Assembly (NCBI GenBank): GCA_037128175.1
Contig: JBAXWY010000001.1
Span: 64,001 to 128,000 of the forward strand
Reading direction: 5' to 3'
Length of the DNA: 64,000 bases
DNA from: Methanothrix sp.
GTDB lineage: Archaea > Halobacteriota > Methanosarcinia > Methanotrichales > Methanotrichaceae
The translations under genes and the position numbers were made by a program. Positions 6,486 to 10,772 of this stretch are shown here, piece after piece; position 1 is the stretch's first letter, and each line of letters opens with the position of its first letter. The notes under the pieces were generated by a model. That model saw only the letters and a list, made by a program, of their open reading frames with translations, had not been told where the DNA came from and ran no database searches.

Positions 6486-7469
6486 TCAATTAGGCCAGGA
6501 AGTACCAGGCGCCCTGGACTGGGCCGCCAGGCAGAGAATTTCAAACATCAGCGTGGCCCCGGCCAGAGCCGTAATCCCGCTGGGATCGTAGGGTGGGGCT
6601 ACCTCCACCAGATCCCCGCCAATGACATTCAGCCCTGACAGACCACGTAAGACCTGCAAGGCCTCGAAGCTGCTCATGCCTCCAACCACCGGGGTTCCCG
6701 TACCCGGAGCGAAGGCCGGGTCCAGACAGTCGATGTCGAAGGATATGTAGACCGGACCGTCTCCAACTATGTTCCTTATTTCAGATACCGTCTTCTTCCA
6801 GCCCAGCTCGTAAAACTCTTCGATGTGAATTACTCTCATGCCGCAGTCGTAGGAGAATTGCCAGAGCAGCTCCGCCGCGCCCCGGATGCCGAGCTGCACA
6901 GTGCGCTTCGGGTCCACCAGCCCCGCCTGCACAGCATTTCGCATGGGGCAGCCGTGCTGCAATCCGCTTCCGTGAAAAGGTGCCGACGTGTCGCAATGCG
7001 AGTCGAAATGGATGAGGCCGACCTTCTCTTTTGAAGAGAGTGCTTTTAGAATGGGAAAGGTTATGGAGTGATCCCCGCCCGCGGTTATGGCCAGGACGTT
7101 GGCGGAGGACATTTTCCGGTAGAATGATTCAATATCTGAGTGGGCCTCTTCCAAATTATAGGTGGTATGGAAGGGCACATCTCCCACATCCGCTACCCGG
7201 TAATCGGCAAAGGGCGACATGCGGCTGTAGTGGTTGTAGACTCCCACCAGCAGTGACTGGTTCCTGATCTCCCGCGGGCCCAGGCGCGCGCCGCTGCGGT
7301 TGGTCACGCCCAGGTCGAAGGGCACGCCCACCAGAGCAATGTCCATATCTTTTATCTCCGCTTGATGTGGCGCCCCGAAAAAGGTAGGGATACCAGAGTA
7401 AGGTGGTTCCAGCATCTGGGGCGTGAAGGTCTTCACGCTCTTTGCGAGCTTTTTCATGTTGTCGTCCAT
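6486..7469 (-). CDS. Ureohydrolase (agmatinase/guanidino-acid hydrolase family)
   Basis: GGDHSIT, HFDSHCD, SFDIDCLDPAFAPGTGTP metal-binding motifs. Confidence 0.9.
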   Translation of the reverse strand: MDDNMKKLAKSVKTFTPQMLEPPYSGIPTFFGAPHQAEIKDMDIALVGVPFDLGVTNRSGARLGPREIRNQSLLVGVYNHYSRMSPFADYRVADVGDVPFHTTYNLEEAHSDIESFYRKMSSANVLAITAGGDHSITFPILKALSSKEKVGLIHFDSHCDTSAPFHGSGLQHGCPMRNAVQAGLVDPKRTVQLGIRGAAELLWQFSYDCGMRVIHIEEFYELGWKKTVSEIRNIVGDGPVYISFDIDCLDPAFAPGTGTPVVGGMSSFEALQVLRGLSGLNVIGGDLVEVAPPYDPSGITALAGATLMFEILCLAAQSRAPGTSWPN

Positions 7470-7515
7470 AACATTTCTCCTGAGATTCCTGCGCGGATGT
7501 GCCGCCACTATTTCA

Positions 7516-7767
7516 CTATCGATACGCCTTGCTGCGATTTCTGATTCGCAATACCAATACTCCGCCCTGTTTCTTGGAATAAACGACCCGGTAGTCTCCT
7601 ATGCGCAGTTTGAACAGTCCTTTAAATTGCCCGGTGAGCGCCTCTCCGCAGTCCGAATTACTGGATAACTCCTCTTCCAGCTCTTTGACTAATCTCAGGG
7701 CAACAGCCTTGTCCAGATTCTTCAGGTCGTGGGCCACAGACGATTTGTACTCAATCAGACAGGCCAA
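7516..7767 (-). CDS. RelE/ParE family toxin
   Basis: DLKNLDK...LTGQFKGLFKLRIGDYRVVY...IRNRSKAYR. Confidence 0.9.
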   Translation of the reverse strand: MACLIEYKSSVAHDLKNLDKAVALRLVKELEEELSSNSDCGEALTGQFKGLFKLRIGDYRVVYSKKQGGVLVLRIRNRSKAYR

Positions 7768-7984
7768 TTAGTTCCCTCATCTCTTCGCTAGATACCACTT
7801 TGTCGTTTTTATCGTTCAAACGCTCCTGGGCAATCAGGTAATCTGAATAATCCTCAAGATATGCCTGCAACGCTTTCTTGATGATATACGCCTTGGAGCG
7901 ATCTATCGTTTCAGAGAGGCTCTTCAGGCTATCTGCCATGTCATCTGGGAGCCTAATCGATACGGATGTGGAGATCTCAATCAC
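7751..7984 (-). CDS. Ribbon-helix-helix antitoxin (RelB/DUF6290-like)
   Basis: SVSIRLPDDM...DRSKAYIIKKAL; overlaps the toxin gene. Confidence 0.85.
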   Translation of the reverse strand: MIEISTSVSIRLPDDMADSLKSLSETIDRSKAYIIKKALQAYLEDYSDYLIAQERLNDKNDKVVSSEEMRELIGLSD

Positions 7985-8030: not shown

Positions 8031-8207
8031 TCACATCCTCCATCCCACATCATACCGCGCCCCGCACTCCGGGCAGATGAGGACGATCCGATAGCCGCTC
8101 TCCGTCCTCAAAAAAGAGCTGTGAAAACCCAGCTCATAGCCGCACTGGGGACAGATCCGAAACTCTTCTGCCAGATCAACCTTGACGATATCGCGAGAAG
8201 CCTTCAT
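8031..8207 (-). CDS. Small Zn-ribbon protein (58 aa), not in ORF track
   Basis: Manual translation MKASRDIVKVDLAEEFRICPQCGYELGFHSSFLRTESGYRIVLICPECGARYDVGWRM; two CPxCG motifs. Confidence 0.75.
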   Translation of the reverse strand: MKASRDIVKVDLAEEFRICPQCGYELGFHSSFLRTESGYRIVLICPECGARYDVGWRM

Positions 8208-8234: not shown

Positions 8235-9083
8235 CTATTTTTCCTCGGGGCCATCATCGCATGGCCCGGCTGAGCCTGCCAGGTCGCCGATATACCGTCC
8301 GCAGTGCGGGCATCTAAATTTTTGCATCTTCCGATCCTCCTTTCTCTTAGCCAGCACCTCGGCAAAACCGGAGGCCAGAACGCCTGTAGGCAGGGCGAAG
8401 AGCCCTATGCCTAATATTACTACTATCGAGCCGATCAACTTGCCCCAGAGTGTCACGGGATATACATCTCCGTAGCCCACCGTGGCCAGGGTCACAATGC
8501 CCCACCACATGGCCACCGGAATGCTGGAGAAGGCCTCGGGCTGAGCAGCGTTCTCCGCCTCGTACATGAGGCTGGAGGAGACGACGAGCAGTATCATGAT
8601 GGCAAAGAACATGAGCAAAATCTCTTCCTTCTTCAGCCGCAACACATCCACGAAGGTCTGTAGCGCCTCGGAGTAGCGGGCCAGCTTCAGCACCCGGAAG
8701 AGCCGGAAGAGGCGCATGGCTCGCATGAACCTCAAATCCAGGAAGAAGATGGGCAGATAGAAAGGCAACACGGCTATGATATCGACTAAGGCCAGGGGCG
8801 TCACCAGGAATTGCAGCCTGCCCCGCACCGGATCTTTGAATCTGGGATTTACGGTGCAGCTCCAAACGCGAAGGATGTATTCAACGGTGAAGACGGCCAC
8901 GGAAAAAACATCGAAAGCACGAAAGAGTGGGGCGTAGGCAGAGTAGATCGACTGCACCGTCTCCAGGACCACCGCGGCTACGTTTAATACAATCAGGCCC
9001 ATGATGAAGGGGTCGAAGTACTTGCTGTCCTCATCTCCCGGCTCCAGTATGCCGTAGATGCGTGTCTTGAGGTCCTGCTTCAT
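8235..9083 (-). CDS. Voltage-gated 6TM potassium channel (canonical filter)
   Basis: S4 RFMRAMRLFRLFRVLKLAR; pore WWGIVTLATVGYGDVYP; C-terminal CPHC. Confidence 0.93.
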   Translation of the reverse strand: MKQDLKTRIYGILEPGDEDSKYFDPFIMGLIVLNVAAVVLETVQSIYSAYAPLFRAFDVFSVAVFTVEYILRVWSCTVNPRFKDPVRGRLQFLVTPLALVDIIAVLPFYLPIFFLDLRFMRAMRLFRLFRVLKLARYSEALQTFVDVLRLKKEEILLMFFAIMILLVVSSSLMYEAENAAQPEAFSSIPVAMWWGIVTLATVGYGDVYPVTLWGKLIGSIVVILGIGLFALPTGVLASGFAEVLAKRKEDRKMQKFRCPHCGRYIGDLAGSAGPCDDGPEEK

Positions 9084-9134
9084 TGTCGGCTTTTATGGAG
9101 AGCGGTTTTGCATTTAAATTCTTTCCAGCGTCAT

Positions 9135-9935
9135 TTAAGGGCCATTTTCAAGGCTCTCTTTCGCTTCGGCTTCCTTCTCCTCCCGTCGTCTCTCCAGCTC
9201 ATCCACAAAGCCAGAGGTGAGAATCGACGTAGGCAGGGCAAAGGTGGCCACGCCCAAAATTATAATCAGACCGCCGGCCAGCTTTCCCAGAGTGGTTATT
9301 GGATAAAAATTCTCGCCGACTGTCGTCATGGTCAGCACCGCCCACCACATGGTGGCGGGTATGTCAGGAAAACGCTGGGGCTGAGCCTCATGCTCCAGGA
9401 AATAAATCACCGTCGAGGATAGCACCATGAAGAAAATGATGGCAGAGAAACTCATGGCCAGCTCGCGCTGTTGGGCGCGTACCACGTCCATTATGGTCTG
9501 CAAGGATTCGGAGTAGCGGCTCATCTTGAGCAGCCGGAAGGTCCAGAGTACGCGAAGGCTTCGCAGTAGCTTATGATCTGTGGGAAAGGCCAGTACAGCG
9601 TAGGTCGGCAATATCACCAGAAGATCGATCAGCGCCAAAGGAGTCAGGGCGAAGCGAAGCCTTCCCAGGAAGGGACGGCTGTATTTCGGGTCCACATCAC
9701 ATGACCAGATGCGCAAAATGTATTCAATGGTGAATACTACGACAGATATGTCCGCGAAGTAATGGAACAGAACTTTATGGGCCGCATAAATGCTCTCCAC
9801 TGTTTCCAGGACCACCGCAGTGACATTGAGGACCACCAGTACCAGCATAAAGAGATTTACAGCCTCAGCCGTTTTGTCTTTTGCATTGGTCGACTCCAGG
9901 ATCTCGTAAATGCGGAGCTTGTAGCTCTTGGCCAT
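9135..9935 (-). CDS. 6TM cation channel paralog with non-canonical filter
   Basis: Same architecture as neighbour; pore WWAVLTMTTVGENFYP. Confidence 0.88.
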   Translation of the reverse strand: MAKSYKLRIYEILESTNAKDKTAEAVNLFMLVLVVLNVTAVVLETVESIYAAHKVLFHYFADISVVVFTIEYILRIWSCDVDPKYSRPFLGRLRFALTPLALIDLLVILPTYAVLAFPTDHKLLRSLRVLWTFRLLKMSRYSESLQTIMDVVRAQQRELAMSFSAIIFFMVLSSTVIYFLEHEAQPQRFPDIPATMWWAVLTMTTVGENFYPITTLGKLAGGLIIILGVATFALPTSILTSGFVDELERRREEKEAEAKESLENGP

Positions 9936-10001
9936 TTCAACCTCGCTATATTGGGCGTGATATGTCTATCTTAATATATACGAACTTGCCTTATTTTTGA
10001 T

Positions 10002-10772
10002 ATGCGAGCCGCTTGCCTCCAGCTTTCCGTAGAGCCCTGTCATCCCGATAAAAATCTCTCTCGCGCATTGCAGATGGCAGGCGCGGCCTTAGCCGAAGGA
10101 GCTGAGATCCTGGTCTTTCCTGAGCTCTTCCTGACCGGCTTTTGCTACGAGCCTTCTTTGCAGTCATCTTCCTCTGCGCAAGACCAGCCGCCCTATCCCT
10201 CACTTGATCCCTTCCGGACGCTGGCTCGCGAGCACAAATGCTTGATCATCGGCTCCATTCGCAGCGGCCGACAGAACCTGGGCTTTTGTCTTGGCGGCGA
10301 CGGCCTAGAGCTTCGCCCCAAGATCCACCCCTTCGCTGAGGAGGAGGAGCACTTTGACGGCGGTGACTTCATCTCGCCCGTAGCCACGAAGTGGGGCCTG
10401 GTGGGGTTAGAGATCTGCTACGACCTGCGCTTTCCTGAGGTGGCGCGCACCCTTGCCCTGCAGGGCGCAGATTTTCTGGTTACCGTGGCCCAGTTTCCCG
10501 CGTCGCGGCGCGAGCAGTGGCGCGTGCTGGCCATGGCCCGGGCCATCGAAAATCAGATGCCTCATCTGGCCTGCAACTGGGCAAACGGCGGGGGCTCATT
10601 GATCATCGATGCCCGCGGCCGGGTGTTGGCCGAGGCCGGCTCAGAGCAAGCTCTGCTATGGGCTGATATCGACCTGGCCGATCAGGATCTATTCCGTCGC
10701 GAGGTCTCCTGTTTTGCTGATCGCCGGCCAGAGATCTACGGAAGGTGGGATGCTGAACGCTCTAACCCATAA
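10002..10772 (+). CDS. Nitrilase/carbon-nitrogen hydrolase
   Basis: FPELFLTG, KIH, EICYDLRFPE, ARAIEN. Confidence 0.9.
   Translation: MRAACLQLSVEPCHPDKNLSRALQMAGAALAEGAEILVFPELFLTGFCYEPSLQSSSSAQDQPPYPSLDPFRTLAREHKCLIIGSIRSGRQNLGFCLGGDGLELRPKIHPFAEEEEHFDGGDFISPVATKWGLVGLEICYDLRFPEVARTLALQGADFLVTVAQFPASRREQWRVLAMARAIENQMPHLACNWANGGGSLIIDARGRVLAEAGSEQALLWADIDLADQDLFRREVSCFADRRPEIYGRWDAERSNP

What the first reader, a model, noticed from the sequence alone, without database searches (positions are those of the whole stretch)
8235..9935. Tandem channel pair: canonical TVGYGD K+ channel plus a paralog with a CNG/NaK-like TVGENFYP filter
Seen: two adjacent co-oriented 6TM paralogs. The upstream one encodes MTTVGENFYP (9300-9329) where the other has ATVGYGDVYP, i.e. 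loss of GYG and one residue shorter. Its S4 also lacks one periodic Arg (RSLRVLWTFRLLK vs RAMRLFRLFRVLK). The reading frame and rest of the pore are intact, which argues against simple decay. Known: CNG channels (TIGETPPP, same T-to-P length, Glu after Gly) and NaK (TVGDGNFSP) are non-selective cation channels, and eukaryotic Kv channels use modifier subunits. Inference: either a natural archaeal non-selective Na+/Ca2+-permeable voltage-sensor channel that converged on the CNG filter, or a modifier subunit forming heterotetramers, which would be unusual for a prokaryote.
Basis: partly seen in the sequence, partly recalled or inferred. Interest (0 to 1): 0.8.

Follow-up and report, generated by a model that had tools for sequence, protein, structure and literature searches.

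The report
Archaeal Kv-like channel without GYG filter
A methane-producing archaeon carries, beside an ordinary voltage-gated potassium channel gene, a well-conserved sister gene whose ion-selecting loop has lost the potassium signature and is one residue shorter, so it probably forms a voltage-sensing channel that no longer picks potassium over sodium.

Summary
Window 9135-9935(-) ("B", 266 aa, filter TTVGENFYP at 9300-9329) and 8235-9083(-) ("A", 282 aa, TVGYGDVYP) are co-oriented 6TM Kv-like paralogs, 47% identical and 51 nt apart.

B is not a lesion. 113 of 120 listed database homologs, and the orthologs in 31 Methanotrichaceae genomes, carry the same one-shorter filter TT[VI]G-x-[N/D/S/E/T]-x-[Y/S]P. 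Position x is E or D in 90 of the 113.

Purifying selection on B is stronger than on A (median dN/dS 0.119 against 0.170). It is strongest in the pore helix plus filter (0.050).

B belongs to an old paralog lineage found only in this family. All 39 members share Trp at one S4 arginine position, where KCNQ2 has Gln. Some members still have GYGD and others have GYDD, GYDE or GSAN.

In all 24 tandem pairs B lies upstream of A, but each gene has its own TATA-like box. B stands without any A gene in 8 genomes, four of them 99% complete, so it is not an obligate modifier subunit.

Best reading, by inference only: a homotetrameric, voltage-sensor-bearing, non-selective cation channel with a CNG/NaK-like filter. 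Heteromers with A remain possible. This is a new variant of a known kind; the function is untested.

The parts
9135..9935 (-). Gene B: 266-aa 6TM Kv-like channel subunit with a non-GYG, one-residue-shorter filter
   Evidence: ORF, translation. Pfam PF00520 92.8 bits. AF2 model pLDDT 81. Foldseek best matches are KCNQ2, Kv4.2 and Kv2.1. Median dN/dS 0.119.
9300..9329 (-). Filter segment MTTVGENFYP (residues 203-212). T205 and G207 are kept, GYG is lost, and the segment is one residue shorter than in A.
   Evidence: The same one-shorter motif is in 113 of 120 listed homologs. T205, G207 and P212 are invariant in the 80-sequence alignment. Regional dN/dS of pore helix plus filter is 0.050.
9513..9575 (-). 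S4 of B (HKLLRSLRVLWTFRLLKMSRY). Trp131 (9543-9545) sits where A has Arg.
   Evidence: W is present in all 39 B-lineage rows and R in all 53 A rows. W131 aligns with the S4 Gln of KCNQ2 (alignment).
9971..9980 (-). TATA-like box TATATATTAA upstream of B, inside the conserved element GGGCAAGTTCGTATATATTAAGATAGACAT. GAGGT lies at 9940-9944, just before the ATG.
   Evidence: Read. Conserved upstream of B in the 24 tandem loci. Its promoter function is inferred, not shown.
9084..9134 (-). 51-nt B-A spacer with a conserved AAAGAATTTAAAT (TATA-like, 9112-9118) about 32 nt before A's ATG. There is no oligo-T run.
   Evidence: A TATA-like element is seen in the spacers of the 24 pairs. G057 has a T10 run after B's stop. 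An RNA-library contig at 9061-9264 covers the whole spacer.
8235..9083 (-). Gene A: 282-aa canonical 6TM K+ channel (TVGYGDVYP) with a conserved C-terminal CPHC..C motif that B lacks
   Evidence: The C-terminal motif is conserved in 0.91-0.98 of 53 A rows. Median dN/dS 0.170.
8031..8207 (-). 58-aa four-Cys zinc-ribbon gene directly downstream of A; a recurrent neighbour of the channel locus
   Evidence: Pfam Zn_Ribbon_1 26 bits, cut-off 25. Found downstream of the last channel gene in 25 of 62 loci with at least 300 nt of room. Any link to the channels is unproven.

Best explanation
B is a functional pore-forming subunit of a voltage-sensor-bearing tetrameric cation channel. It belongs to a paralog lineage of Kv-like channels confined to Methanotrichaceae.

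Shown here. The lineage first acquired a KCNQ-like S4 with Trp at one Arg position. Within it, the K+ signature GYGD was then replaced. In the clade that includes the window gene, one residue was deleted, giving TT[V/I]G-[E/D]-N-[F/V]-YP.

Inferred. The filter keeps the Thr-x-Gly that builds the inner ion sites but lacks the Tyr-Gly that builds the outer ones. It can therefore offer fewer than four contiguous sites. By the rule established on NaK, NaK2CNG and NaK2K, it should pass Na+ and K+ with little discrimination. Where the residue after Gly is Glu or Asp, as in the window gene, external divalent cations are expected to bind and block or permeate, as in CNG pores.

The protein most likely works as a homotetramer gated by its own voltage sensor. 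Mixed tetramers with the neighbouring canonical channel A may also form where both genes are present.
For: (1) Fold and family. PF00520 scores 92.8 bits. The best solved relatives by sequence are Kv2.1 (2.7e-31) and KCNQ2 (4.5e-31). The AF2 model (pLDDT 81) matches KCNQ2, Kv4.2 and Kv2.1 with TMq 0.6-0.78. The S2 Phe68 and S3 Asp104 are invariant, and Glu71, Arg75 and the S4 residues R125, R128, R134, K137, R140 are at least 90% conserved in 80 sequences.

(2) Conservation of the odd filter. 113 of 120 listed homologs carry it, as do 31 genomes.

(3) Selection. Median pairwise dN/dS is 0.119 for B (range 0.058-0.232) and 0.170 for A, over 198 usable of 210 pairs from 21 genomes. By region, B is lowest in pore helix plus filter (0.050) and S6 (0.066). 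A scores 0.110 and 0.132 there.

(4) Conserved re-packing around the filter. M203, N209, A230, T231, S237 and T240 are fixed or nearly fixed (0.90-1.0) in the one-shorter clade and differ from A.

(5) Autonomy. B is present with no A-type gene at E<=1e-10 in G072, G011, G001 and G003 (99% complete), G002 (97), G036 (96), G010 (93) and G052 (84). A PF07885 search of five of these found no A-type channel. The other pore proteins have open frames of 350-581 aa, and G036 also has an unrelated 297-aa frame with TVGFGD. The locus context (CN_hydrolase and PriS upstream) is kept and no A remnant is present.

(6) Structural rule, from passages of PMC3082925. NaK (TVGDG) has two sites and NaK2CNG (TVG-E/D/N-TPP) has three; both are non-selective. 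Four contiguous sites are needed for K+ selectivity. The acidic residue mediates Ca2+ block, E-to-N abolishes it, and E-to-D raises affinity about 10-fold. A passage of PMC2233792 cites Heginbotham 1992: deleting Y445 and G446 of Shaker gives a non-selective channel.
Against: No conduction, selectivity or assembly data exist; the selectivity claim is inference from sequence and from other channels.

The B filter (G-E-N-F-Y-P) is identical to no characterised filter, and its backbone conformation is unknown.

The acidic residue is replaced by M, T, V, P, Q or G in 23 of 113 homologs. Divalent binding therefore cannot be the clade's common function.

B has decayed in some genomes: stop codons in G080, and fragments beside A in G069, G081 and a second locus of G056. 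Three database clusters are frameshifted inside the pore (P0083, P0084, P0093). B is therefore dispensable in some lineages.

Expression evidence is thin. It consists of a few low-depth contigs from two RNA-library runs of one sample, and such libraries can contain DNA.
Confidence: 0.55

Rival explanations
1. B is a modifier subunit. It co-assembles with the neighbouring canonical channel A into heterotetramers whose selectivity and gating differ from A alone, in the manner of eukaryotic KvS/Kv2 or CNGB/CNGA subunits. That would be its main role in genomes such as the window's.
For: The two genes are adjacent and co-oriented, with B always upstream, in 24 of 24 tandem pairs across four genus-level groups. 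Gaps are 49-143 nt, median 52.5.

22 of the 31 genomes with the one-shorter B have A next to it.

The paralogs are 47% identical over the whole membrane part. An RNA-library contig spans the spacer.
Against: B stands without any A-type gene in 8 genomes, four of them 99% complete. A stands without B in many others. Neither gene needs the other.

A conserved TATA-like box for A lies in the spacer, and G057 has a T10 run after B's stop. The genes can therefore be separate transcription units.

The A and B gene histories disagree in G058, G059 and G074. Against G000, A has dS 1.18-1.41 and B has dS 0.50-0.61. The partner next to B has therefore been exchanged.

B's own pore is its most constrained part. 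That is expected for a pore-former, though it is also compatible with a shared pore.
Confidence: 0.2
2. B still conducts selectively, through an unconventional filter. It could be weakly K+-selective like HCN channels, or selective for another cation such as Na+, Ca2+ or NH4+.
For: The filter and pore helix are under the strongest constraint in the protein (dN/dS 0.050), with a nearly fixed T-T-x-G-x-N-x-Y-P. This suggests a precise geometry rather than a mere hole. The acidic ring is present in 90 of 113 homologs.
Against: In every case described in the passages read, filters with fewer than four contiguous K+-type sites were non-selective between Na+ and K+. The variable residue after Gly argues against a side-chain-based selectivity site common to the clade.
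Confidence: 0.1
3. The pore of B does not conduct. The protein serves as a voltage or membrane-state sensor, or as a structural or regulatory membrane protein.
For: The canonical signature is lost. The second S6 Gly of A's LGIGLF is Ala in B, and the Gly of A's PTG motif is Ser in B. These changes could stiffen the gate. B has been lost or has decayed in several genomes.
Against: A non-conducting pore should be free to drift. Instead, pore helix, filter and S6 have the lowest dN/dS of the protein, lower than in the K+ channel A. T205 and G207 are invariant.
Confidence: 0.1
4. B is a decaying duplicate, an assembly error or a sequencing error in this genome.
For: None beyond the loss of GYG itself.
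Against: The frame is intact here and in 30 further genomes. 113 of 120 homologs share the filter. dN/dS is 0.119. Contigs from an independent RNA library match the region with 0-4 differences.
Confidence: 0.02

Closest known systems
Canonical prokaryotic and eukaryotic 6TM voltage-gated K+ channels. By sequence and fold the nearest solved ones are Kv2.1 and KCNQ2 (Kv7.2).
   Same: Same fold and domain order: S1-S4 sensor, S4-S5 linker, S5, pore helix, filter, S6. The S2 Phe and the acidic residues of S2 and S3 are conserved. S4 has a neutral residue where KCNQ2 has Gln. S6 carries an ALPxxxLxSGF motif like that of KCNQ2 (alignment).
   Different: The T-x-G-Y-G-D signature is replaced by T-x-G-[E/D]-N and is one residue shorter. 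B has no T1 domain, calmodulin-binding helices or other cytoplasmic domain; the protein is only 266 aa.
Cyclic-nucleotide-gated (CNG) channel pores and the NaK2CNG chimeras (filter TIGET / TVG-E/D/N-TPP)
   Same: T-[V/I]-G is followed directly by Glu or Asp (CNG signature from passages of PMC3082925). The natural E/D alternation in the clade (53 E, 37 D) mirrors the NaK2CNG-E and NaK2CNG-D pair.
   Different: B has no cyclic-nucleotide-binding domain or C-linker; Pfam finds only Ion_trans and Ion_trans_2. After the acid comes N-[F/V]-Y-P, not T-P-P. 23 of 113 members have no acid at that position. B derives from a Kv-like paralog inside one archaeal family, so any likeness to CNG pores is convergent.
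NaK channel of Bacillus cereus (filter TVGDGNFS)
   Same: The string is TVG + acid + (G) + N + F. B reads like the NaK filter with the second Gly removed and D changed to E (NaK filter). NaK is a non-selective prokaryotic member of the K+ channel fold.
   Different: From my own knowledge, NaK is a 2TM channel without a voltage sensor. B is 6TM and one residue shorter in the filter. They show no close sequence relationship.
NaKTs, the Ca2+-activated non-selective channel of Tsukamurella paurometabola (PMC5052707; abstract read)
   Same: A natural prokaryotic channel of the K+ channel family with an unusual filter sequence that conducts cations non-selectively.
   Different: It has a proline-rich filter and Ca2+-dependent activity, and comes from a different lineage. 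No voltage-sensor domain is mentioned in the abstract.
Shaker with Y445 and G446 deleted (Heginbotham et al. 1992, as cited in PMC2233792; passage read)
   Same: A Kv channel that loses residues of GYG and becomes non-selective. B is a natural relative of that laboratory mutant.
   Different: B has lost one residue, not two. It also has further fixed substitutions around the filter and in S6.
Electrically silent KvS subunits (Kv5, Kv6, Kv8, Kv9) that assemble with Kv2 (abstracts in the search listing)
   Same: A diverged paralog beside a canonical Kv channel, with an altered sensor and pore.
   Different: According to those abstracts, KvS subunits do not form functional homomers and work only with Kv2. 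B occurs in 8 genomes without any A-type partner.

Membership tests
Voltage-gated ion channel superfamily, 6TM 'Ion_trans' (Pfam PF00520) | Profile match above the curated cut-off over the whole membrane part | tested here: met
   92.8 bits against a cut-off of 25, residues 26-249, profile positions 4-239 of 241
Voltage-gated ion channel superfamily, 6TM 'Ion_trans' (Pfam PF00520) | Six-helix fold with a pore helix between S5 and S6 | tested here: met
   AF2 model with pLDDT 81 and the expected helices. Foldseek matches KCNQ2, Kv4.2, Kv2.1 and Kv1.2 with E 4e-11 to 1e-9 and TMq up to 0.78.
Voltage-gated ion channel superfamily, 6TM 'Ion_trans' (Pfam PF00520) | S4 with basic residues at every third position, plus the S2 Phe/Glu and S3 Asp counter-charges | tested here: met
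   K122, R125, R128, (W131), R134, K137, R140. F68 and D104 are invariant; E71, R125, R128, R134, K137 and R140 are at least 90% conserved in 80 sequences. Voltage dependence itself cannot be tested here.
K+-selective channels (signature T-x-G-[Y/F]-G) | Signature sequence that forms four contiguous K+ sites | tested here: not met
   B has T-V-G-E-N and is one residue shorter. The same holds in 113 of 120 homologs.
Cyclic-nucleotide-gated channels | C-terminal cyclic-nucleotide-binding domain and C-linker | tested here: not met
   Pfam finds only PF00520 and PF07885. The protein ends 21 residues after S6.
Cyclic-nucleotide-gated channels | Filter T-I-G-E-T-P-P with a conserved acidic residue after Gly | tested here: inconclusive
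   T-[V/I]-G-[E/D] is present in 90 of 113 members, but it is followed by N-[F/V]-Y-P rather than T-P-P, and 23 of 113 lack the acid.
NaK-type non-selective channels | 2TM pore-only architecture with filter TVGDGNFS | tested here: not met
   B is 6TM. Its filter resembles NaK's but lacks the second Gly (NaK filter).
Silent modifier subunits (KvS-like) | Never alone: always accompanied by the canonical partner it modifies | tested here: not met
   8 genomes have B and no A-type gene at E<=1e-10. This was checked with PF07885 in 5 of them.
Silent modifier subunits (KvS-like) | No functional homomeric channel; physical co-assembly with the partner | not testable with these tools
   Needs expression and electrophysiology or co-purification. 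No complex prediction was run, because two 47%-identical paralogs would be placed together simply by likeness to solved Kv tetramers.
NCBIfam NF040645 K_channel_Meth (hyperpolarization-activated K+ channel of methanogens) | Equivalog score above the cut-off | tested here: not met
   30.1 bits for B and 53.1 bits for A against a cut-off of 300

The most novel reading that the evidence does not exclude
B is a native archaeal voltage-gated, Na+-permeable and possibly Ca2+-permeable depolarising channel. Together with the repolarising K+ channel A encoded next to it, it would give Methanothrix a minimal two-conductance excitable system. Methanothrix grows as long sheathed filaments (my own knowledge), so this system could support electrical signalling or rapid control of membrane potential along a filament. 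The clade would also supply a natural series of filters (GYGD, GYDD/GYDE, GSAN, G-[E/D/M/V/T]N) that records step by step how a K+ pore turns into a CNG-like pore.
Probability: 0.07. Interest if true: 0.9.

Novelty: new variant of a known kind. Interest (0 to 1): 0.55.

Why it matters
Nearly all studied voltage-sensor-bearing channels of the K+ channel fold in prokaryotes carry GYG (my own knowledge). Non-selective relatives such as NaK and NaKTs, the laboratory NaK2CNG chimeras and the Shaker deletion mutant were each studied as single cases.

Here a whole family-level clade has naturally made the same kind of change and kept it under strong selection. Living intermediates survive (GYGD, GYDD/GYDE, GSAN, then the deletion). 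The clade also shows a natural E/D/M/V/T series at the position that controls Ca2+ block in CNG-type pores.

That makes a long-standing question directly testable with small, tag-free archaeal proteins. The question is how many filter sites, and which residues, decide K+/Na+ selectivity and divalent block.

It also corrects an annotation. Public sources name these proteins 'voltage-gated potassium channel' or 'ion transporter'. A K+-selective function is unlikely.

For methanogen physiology, a voltage-gated Na+-permeable leak would bear on the sodium-motive energy budget of an organism that lives near the thermodynamic limit. That point comes from my own knowledge and was not tested.

Tried and rejected
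(1) Sequencing error or strain lesion: rejected.

(2) Obligate operon with A. The spacer has its own conserved TATA-like box, and one genome has a T10 run after B, so co-transcription is not required. The only RNA evidence is a few low-depth Logan contigs from two runs of one freshwater metatranscriptome sample. One contig (9061-9264) covers the spacer but reaches only 23 nt into A, below the tool's 31-nt rule for bridging A's start. Parts of both genes have no cover. None of this can rank or prove expression.

(3) Several independent losses of GYG. The free tree favours them (lnL 41.4 better). However, the AU test does not reject a tree that holds all 36 non-GYGD rows together (p 0.129), and that group was named after the tree had been seen. 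The number of loss events therefore stays open, from one to three or more.

(4) B-like genes outside the family. Among 287 genomes of the same class outside the family, none exceeds 46% identity to B. I did not read the filters of those 17 hits.

(5) A correlation between having an acidic filter residue and having A next door is not clean. B-only genomes have D, E, E, E, E, V, M and T; G008 has P with A present.

(6) Literature. 'Methanosaeta' + 'voltage-gated potassium channel' returned 0 papers. 'Methanothrix' + 'potassium channel' returned 3 unrelated papers. Broader searches gave no paper on such a clade. The searched library lacks most subscription journals, and supplements were closed.

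(8) No complex prediction was run.

(9) The AF2 monomer model was used for the fold only. Filter geometry cannot be trusted from it.
Full report
**1. What is in the window**

On the minus strand lie two co-oriented ORFs. B is 9135-9935 (266 aa). A is 8235-9083 (282 aa). They are separated by 51 nt.

BLASTP aligns them over 258 columns with 47% identity and E 3e-86. The only gap in the pore region is a one-residue gap in B's filter. Both pass Pfam Ion_trans, PF00520, with 92.8 and 120.2 bits against a cut-off of 25, and both pass Ion_trans_2. Neither reaches the NCBIfam equivalog for the hyperpolarization-activated methanogen K+ channel: 30 and 53 bits against a cut-off of 300.

The string MTTVGENFYP is encoded exactly at 9300-9329. 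A has ATVGYGDVYP. In S4, B reads HKLLRSLRVLWTFRLLKMSRY, and A has Arg where B has Trp131.

Source names attached to homologs place the genes in Methanothrix (Methanosaeta), family Methanotrichaceae.

**2. The odd filter is a conserved trait, not a lesion**

The word-index search found 2071 proteins with E<=0.001 and listed the best 120.

- 113 of the 120 carry the same one-shorter filter, T-T-[V/I]-G-x-[N/D/S/E/T]-[F/V/I/Y]-[Y/S]-P.
- Position x is E in 53, D in 37, M in 8, T in 6, V in 5, P in 2, Q in 1 and G in 1.
- Of the other 7, three are frameshifted inside the pore (P0083, P0084, P0093), three are fragments (P0114, P0121, P0122), and one (P0119) has a full-length non-GYG filter, TIGSANVYP.

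In a search of 105 genomes of the family, 84 had a match at E<=1e-10. Reading the loci gave 31 genomes with an intact one-shorter B, in genus-level groups g1, g2, g5 and g7.

**3. Selection**

I built codon alignments of the 21 g1 genomes that carry both genes in tandem and applied Nei-Gojobori. 198 of 210 pairs were usable. The 12 pairs dropped had dS outside 0.05-2 or undefined.

| Measure | B | A |
|---|---|---|
| Median dN/dS, whole gene | 0.119 (range 0.058-0.232) | 0.170 (range 0.029-0.265) |
| Pore helix + filter | 0.050 | 0.110 |
| S6 | 0.066 | 0.132 |
| S1-S4 | 0.133 | 0.166 |

By region, B is most constrained in the pore helix plus filter and in S6. A pore that no longer mattered would not be the slowest-evolving part of the protein.

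Several residues behind the filter and in S6 are fixed or nearly fixed in the one-shorter clade and differ from A: M203, N209, A230, T231, S237 and T240. This looks like re-packing around a rebuilt filter.

**4. Evolutionary history**

I built a maximum-likelihood tree of 92 family sequences plus 12 outgroup representatives, with the nine filter columns left out. This was quick IQ-TREE with SH-aLRT support only, and the outgroup rows are long.

- All one-shorter sequences fall in one clade: 31 rows at support 97, and 30 rows at support 99.
- That clade sits inside a 39-row lineage (support 99) which also holds G009 (TIGSANVYP), G015 and G016 (TIGYDDIYP), G020 (GYDD), G032 (GYDE), and G034, G030 and G027 with an intact TIGYGD.

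Independent character support comes from the alignment. All 39 rows have Trp131 where all 53 A rows have Arg. They also share V107, F169, T195, L201, I225 and V229 against A.

So the B lineage began as an ordinary GYGD channel with a changed S4 and lost the K+ signature later. The deletion happened once. How many separate times GYG was lost is open. The free tree implies several losses, but the AU test does not reject one clade of all 36 non-GYGD rows (p 0.129).

In a search of 392 genomes of the class, no genome outside the family (287 genomes) has a hit above 46% identity to B. The lineage appears confined to Methanotrichaceae.

**5. Relation to the neighbour A**

In 24 of 24 tandem pairs (21 in g1, plus G008, G009 and G032), B lies upstream of A on the same strand. 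Gaps are 49-143 nt, median 52.5. That is a conserved arrangement, probably ancestral to the family.

The two genes are nonetheless not tied to each other.

- Of the 31 genomes with the one-shorter B, 22 have A adjacent and one (G079) has A 65 kb away.
- Eight have no A-type gene at E<=1e-10: G072, G011, G001 and G003 at 99% completeness, G002 at 97, G036 at 96, G010 at 93 and G052 at 84.
- A Pfam PF07885 search of five of these found, besides B, pore proteins with open frames of 350-581 aa. G036 also has an unrelated 297-aa frame with TVGFGD.
- In three B-only loci the upstream context is the same as in the window (CN_hydrolase and primase PriS). No remnant of A is detectable at tblastn E<=10.
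- Conversely, many genomes have A without B.
- B has decayed beside an intact A in G069, G081 and a second locus of G056, and it carries stop codons in G080.

Each gene has its own TATA-like box. The element TATATATTAA lies inside a strongly conserved block upstream of B. A conserved AAAGAATTTAAAT lies about 32 nt before A's ATG in the spacer. G057 also has a T10 run after B's stop.

The histories of A and B disagree in G058, G059 and G074.

The only RNA evidence is a handful of low-depth contigs from two runs of one freshwater metatranscriptome sample. One of them covers B's 3' end, the spacer and 23 nt of A. It is compatible with read-through but proves nothing.

**6. The voltage sensor**

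B keeps the S2 Phe68 and S3 Asp104, which are invariant. Glu71, Arg75 and the S4 residues R125, R128, R134, K137 and R140 are at least 90% conserved over 80 sequences.

In the HMMER alignment to solved structures (best hits Kv2.1 at 2.7e-31 and KCNQ2 at 4.5e-31), Trp131 aligns with the S4 Gln of KCNQ2. That is the neutral position in LRSLRFLQILRMIR, against B's LRSLRVLWTFRLLK. A neutral residue at this S4 position is therefore compatible with a working sensor. It is not evidence of decay.

The AF2 model has pLDDT 81 and pTM 0.58. It matches KCNQ2, Kv4.2, Kv2.1 and Kv1.2 chains.

**7. Most likely mechanism**

What is shown:
- B is an intact, conserved Kv-fold protein.
- Its pore is under strong constraint.
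- It can exist without A.

What is inferred:
- It forms homotetramers, like its relatives.
- Its filter keeps Thr205 and Gly207 (the inner sites) but lacks Tyr-Gly (the outer sites).
- It therefore has fewer than four contiguous sites.

According to the passages read in Alam and Jiang's review (PMC3082925):
- NaK (TVGDG) has two sites and NaK2CNG (TVG-E/D/N-TPP) has three. Both are non-selective between Na+ and K+.
- Four contiguous sites are needed for K+ selectivity.
- The acidic residue after Gly mediates external Ca2+ block. E-to-N abolishes the block and E-to-D raises affinity about ten-fold.

A passage in PMC2233792 cites Heginbotham 1992: deleting Y445 and G446 from Shaker gives a non-selective channel.

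B is a natural counterpart. I therefore expect a voltage-gated, non-selective monovalent cation conductance. It should be divalent-sensitive in the E and D forms, such as the window gene, and insensitive in the M, V and T forms. My confidence is about 0.55.

Heteromers with A, where both are present, are possible (0.2 as the main role). Less likely are an unconventional selective pore (0.1) and a non-conducting sensor (0.1). Decay or error is excluded for practical purposes.

**8. Comparison with what is known, and novelty**

B is a member of the 6TM voltage-gated channel superfamily: profile, fold and sensor residues are all met.
- It is not a member of the K+-selective signature class, because the signature is not met.
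- It is not a CNG channel, because it has no nucleotide-binding domain.
- It is not a NaK-type 2TM channel.
- It fails the one testable criterion for a KvS-like silent subunit, which is never standing alone.

It probably works like a CNG/NaK-type pore behind a Kv/KCNQ-type sensor.

I found no paper on such channels in Methanothrix or Methanosaeta. I found none on a conserved prokaryotic Kv clade with this filter. The library lacks most subscription journals, and supplements were closed, so earlier surveys of prokaryotic channel filters may mention such sequences.

Other sporadic non-canonical filters exist among distant relatives: P0127, P0165, P0168, P0191, P0261 and P0265. Loss of GYG in Kv-like paralogs is therefore not unique. 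The depth, conservation and living intermediates of this clade are what stand out.

Verdict: a real, conserved, probably functional new variant of a known kind. It is of moderate to good interest for channel biophysics. Its physiological role is unknown.

Noticed in passing
window 8031-8207 (-): A 58-aa four-Cys zinc-ribbon gene lies 27 nt downstream of A (Pfam Zn_Ribbon_1 26 bits). A homolog lies directly downstream of the last channel gene in 25 of 62 loci with at least 300 nt of room: 12 of 20 B+A loci, 5 of 15 B-only and 8 of 27 A-only. It may be an accessory or regulatory partner of the channel locus.
   Followed up: partly
window 8235-8330 (-), C-terminus of A: A carries a conserved C-terminal C-P-H-C...C motif (0.91-0.98 of 53 A rows) that the B lineage lacks. 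It could be a metal-binding or assembly element. Not studied.
   Followed up: no
window 7516-7984 (-): A ParE-family toxin (83 aa, PF05016, 2.8e-11) overlaps an upstream ribbon-helix-helix antitoxin (77 aa, PF01402). This type II toxin-antitoxin pair sits between the channel locus and the arginase-family gene.
   Followed up: partly
window 6486-7508 (-) and 10002-10772 (+): The channel locus is flanked by an arginase/agmatinase-family gene (PF00491, 3e-92) and a carbon-nitrogen hydrolase (PF00795, 3.5e-40). These families contain agmatinase and N-carbamoylputrescine amidase (my own knowledge), so both neighbours may belong to polyamine synthesis. The CN_hydrolase/PriS side is conserved next to B in relatives.
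   Followed up: no
window 9941-10000 (-), upstream of B: An unusually well conserved ~30-nt block, GGGCAAGTTCGTATATATTAAGATAGACAT, surrounds the TATA-like box of B. It is present across g1, with recognisable versions in g5, g6 and g13. The conservation is more than a bare TATA box needs, so it may hold a regulator site.
   Followed up: partly
P0123-P0142 (representatives search): The highest-scoring representatives include proteins with two, three or four Kv-like 6TM repeats in one chain. P0123 (1493 aa) has four GYG pore domains and P0124 (952 aa) has three; several of about 570-620 aa have two. In some, one repeat has a non-canonical filter (P0127 AHVRHGNLYP, P0134 TLGSGD). Their origin is unknown because the library holds no names.
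   Followed up: no
loci L009, L010, L013 (G059, G058, G074): The A gene next to B is of a different A subclade than in the window genome (dS to G000 1.18-1.41), while B is close (dS 0.50-0.61). This points to recombination or replacement of one gene of the pair within the genus.
   Followed up: partly
G069:C115:9300-9635, G081:C5:326314-327320, G080:C17:34599-35399, G056:C131:2360-2542: These are decayed copies of B. Three are internally deleted fragments or pieces beside an intact A. In G080, B has one TGA and one TAG inside (frames seen split).
   Followed up: partly
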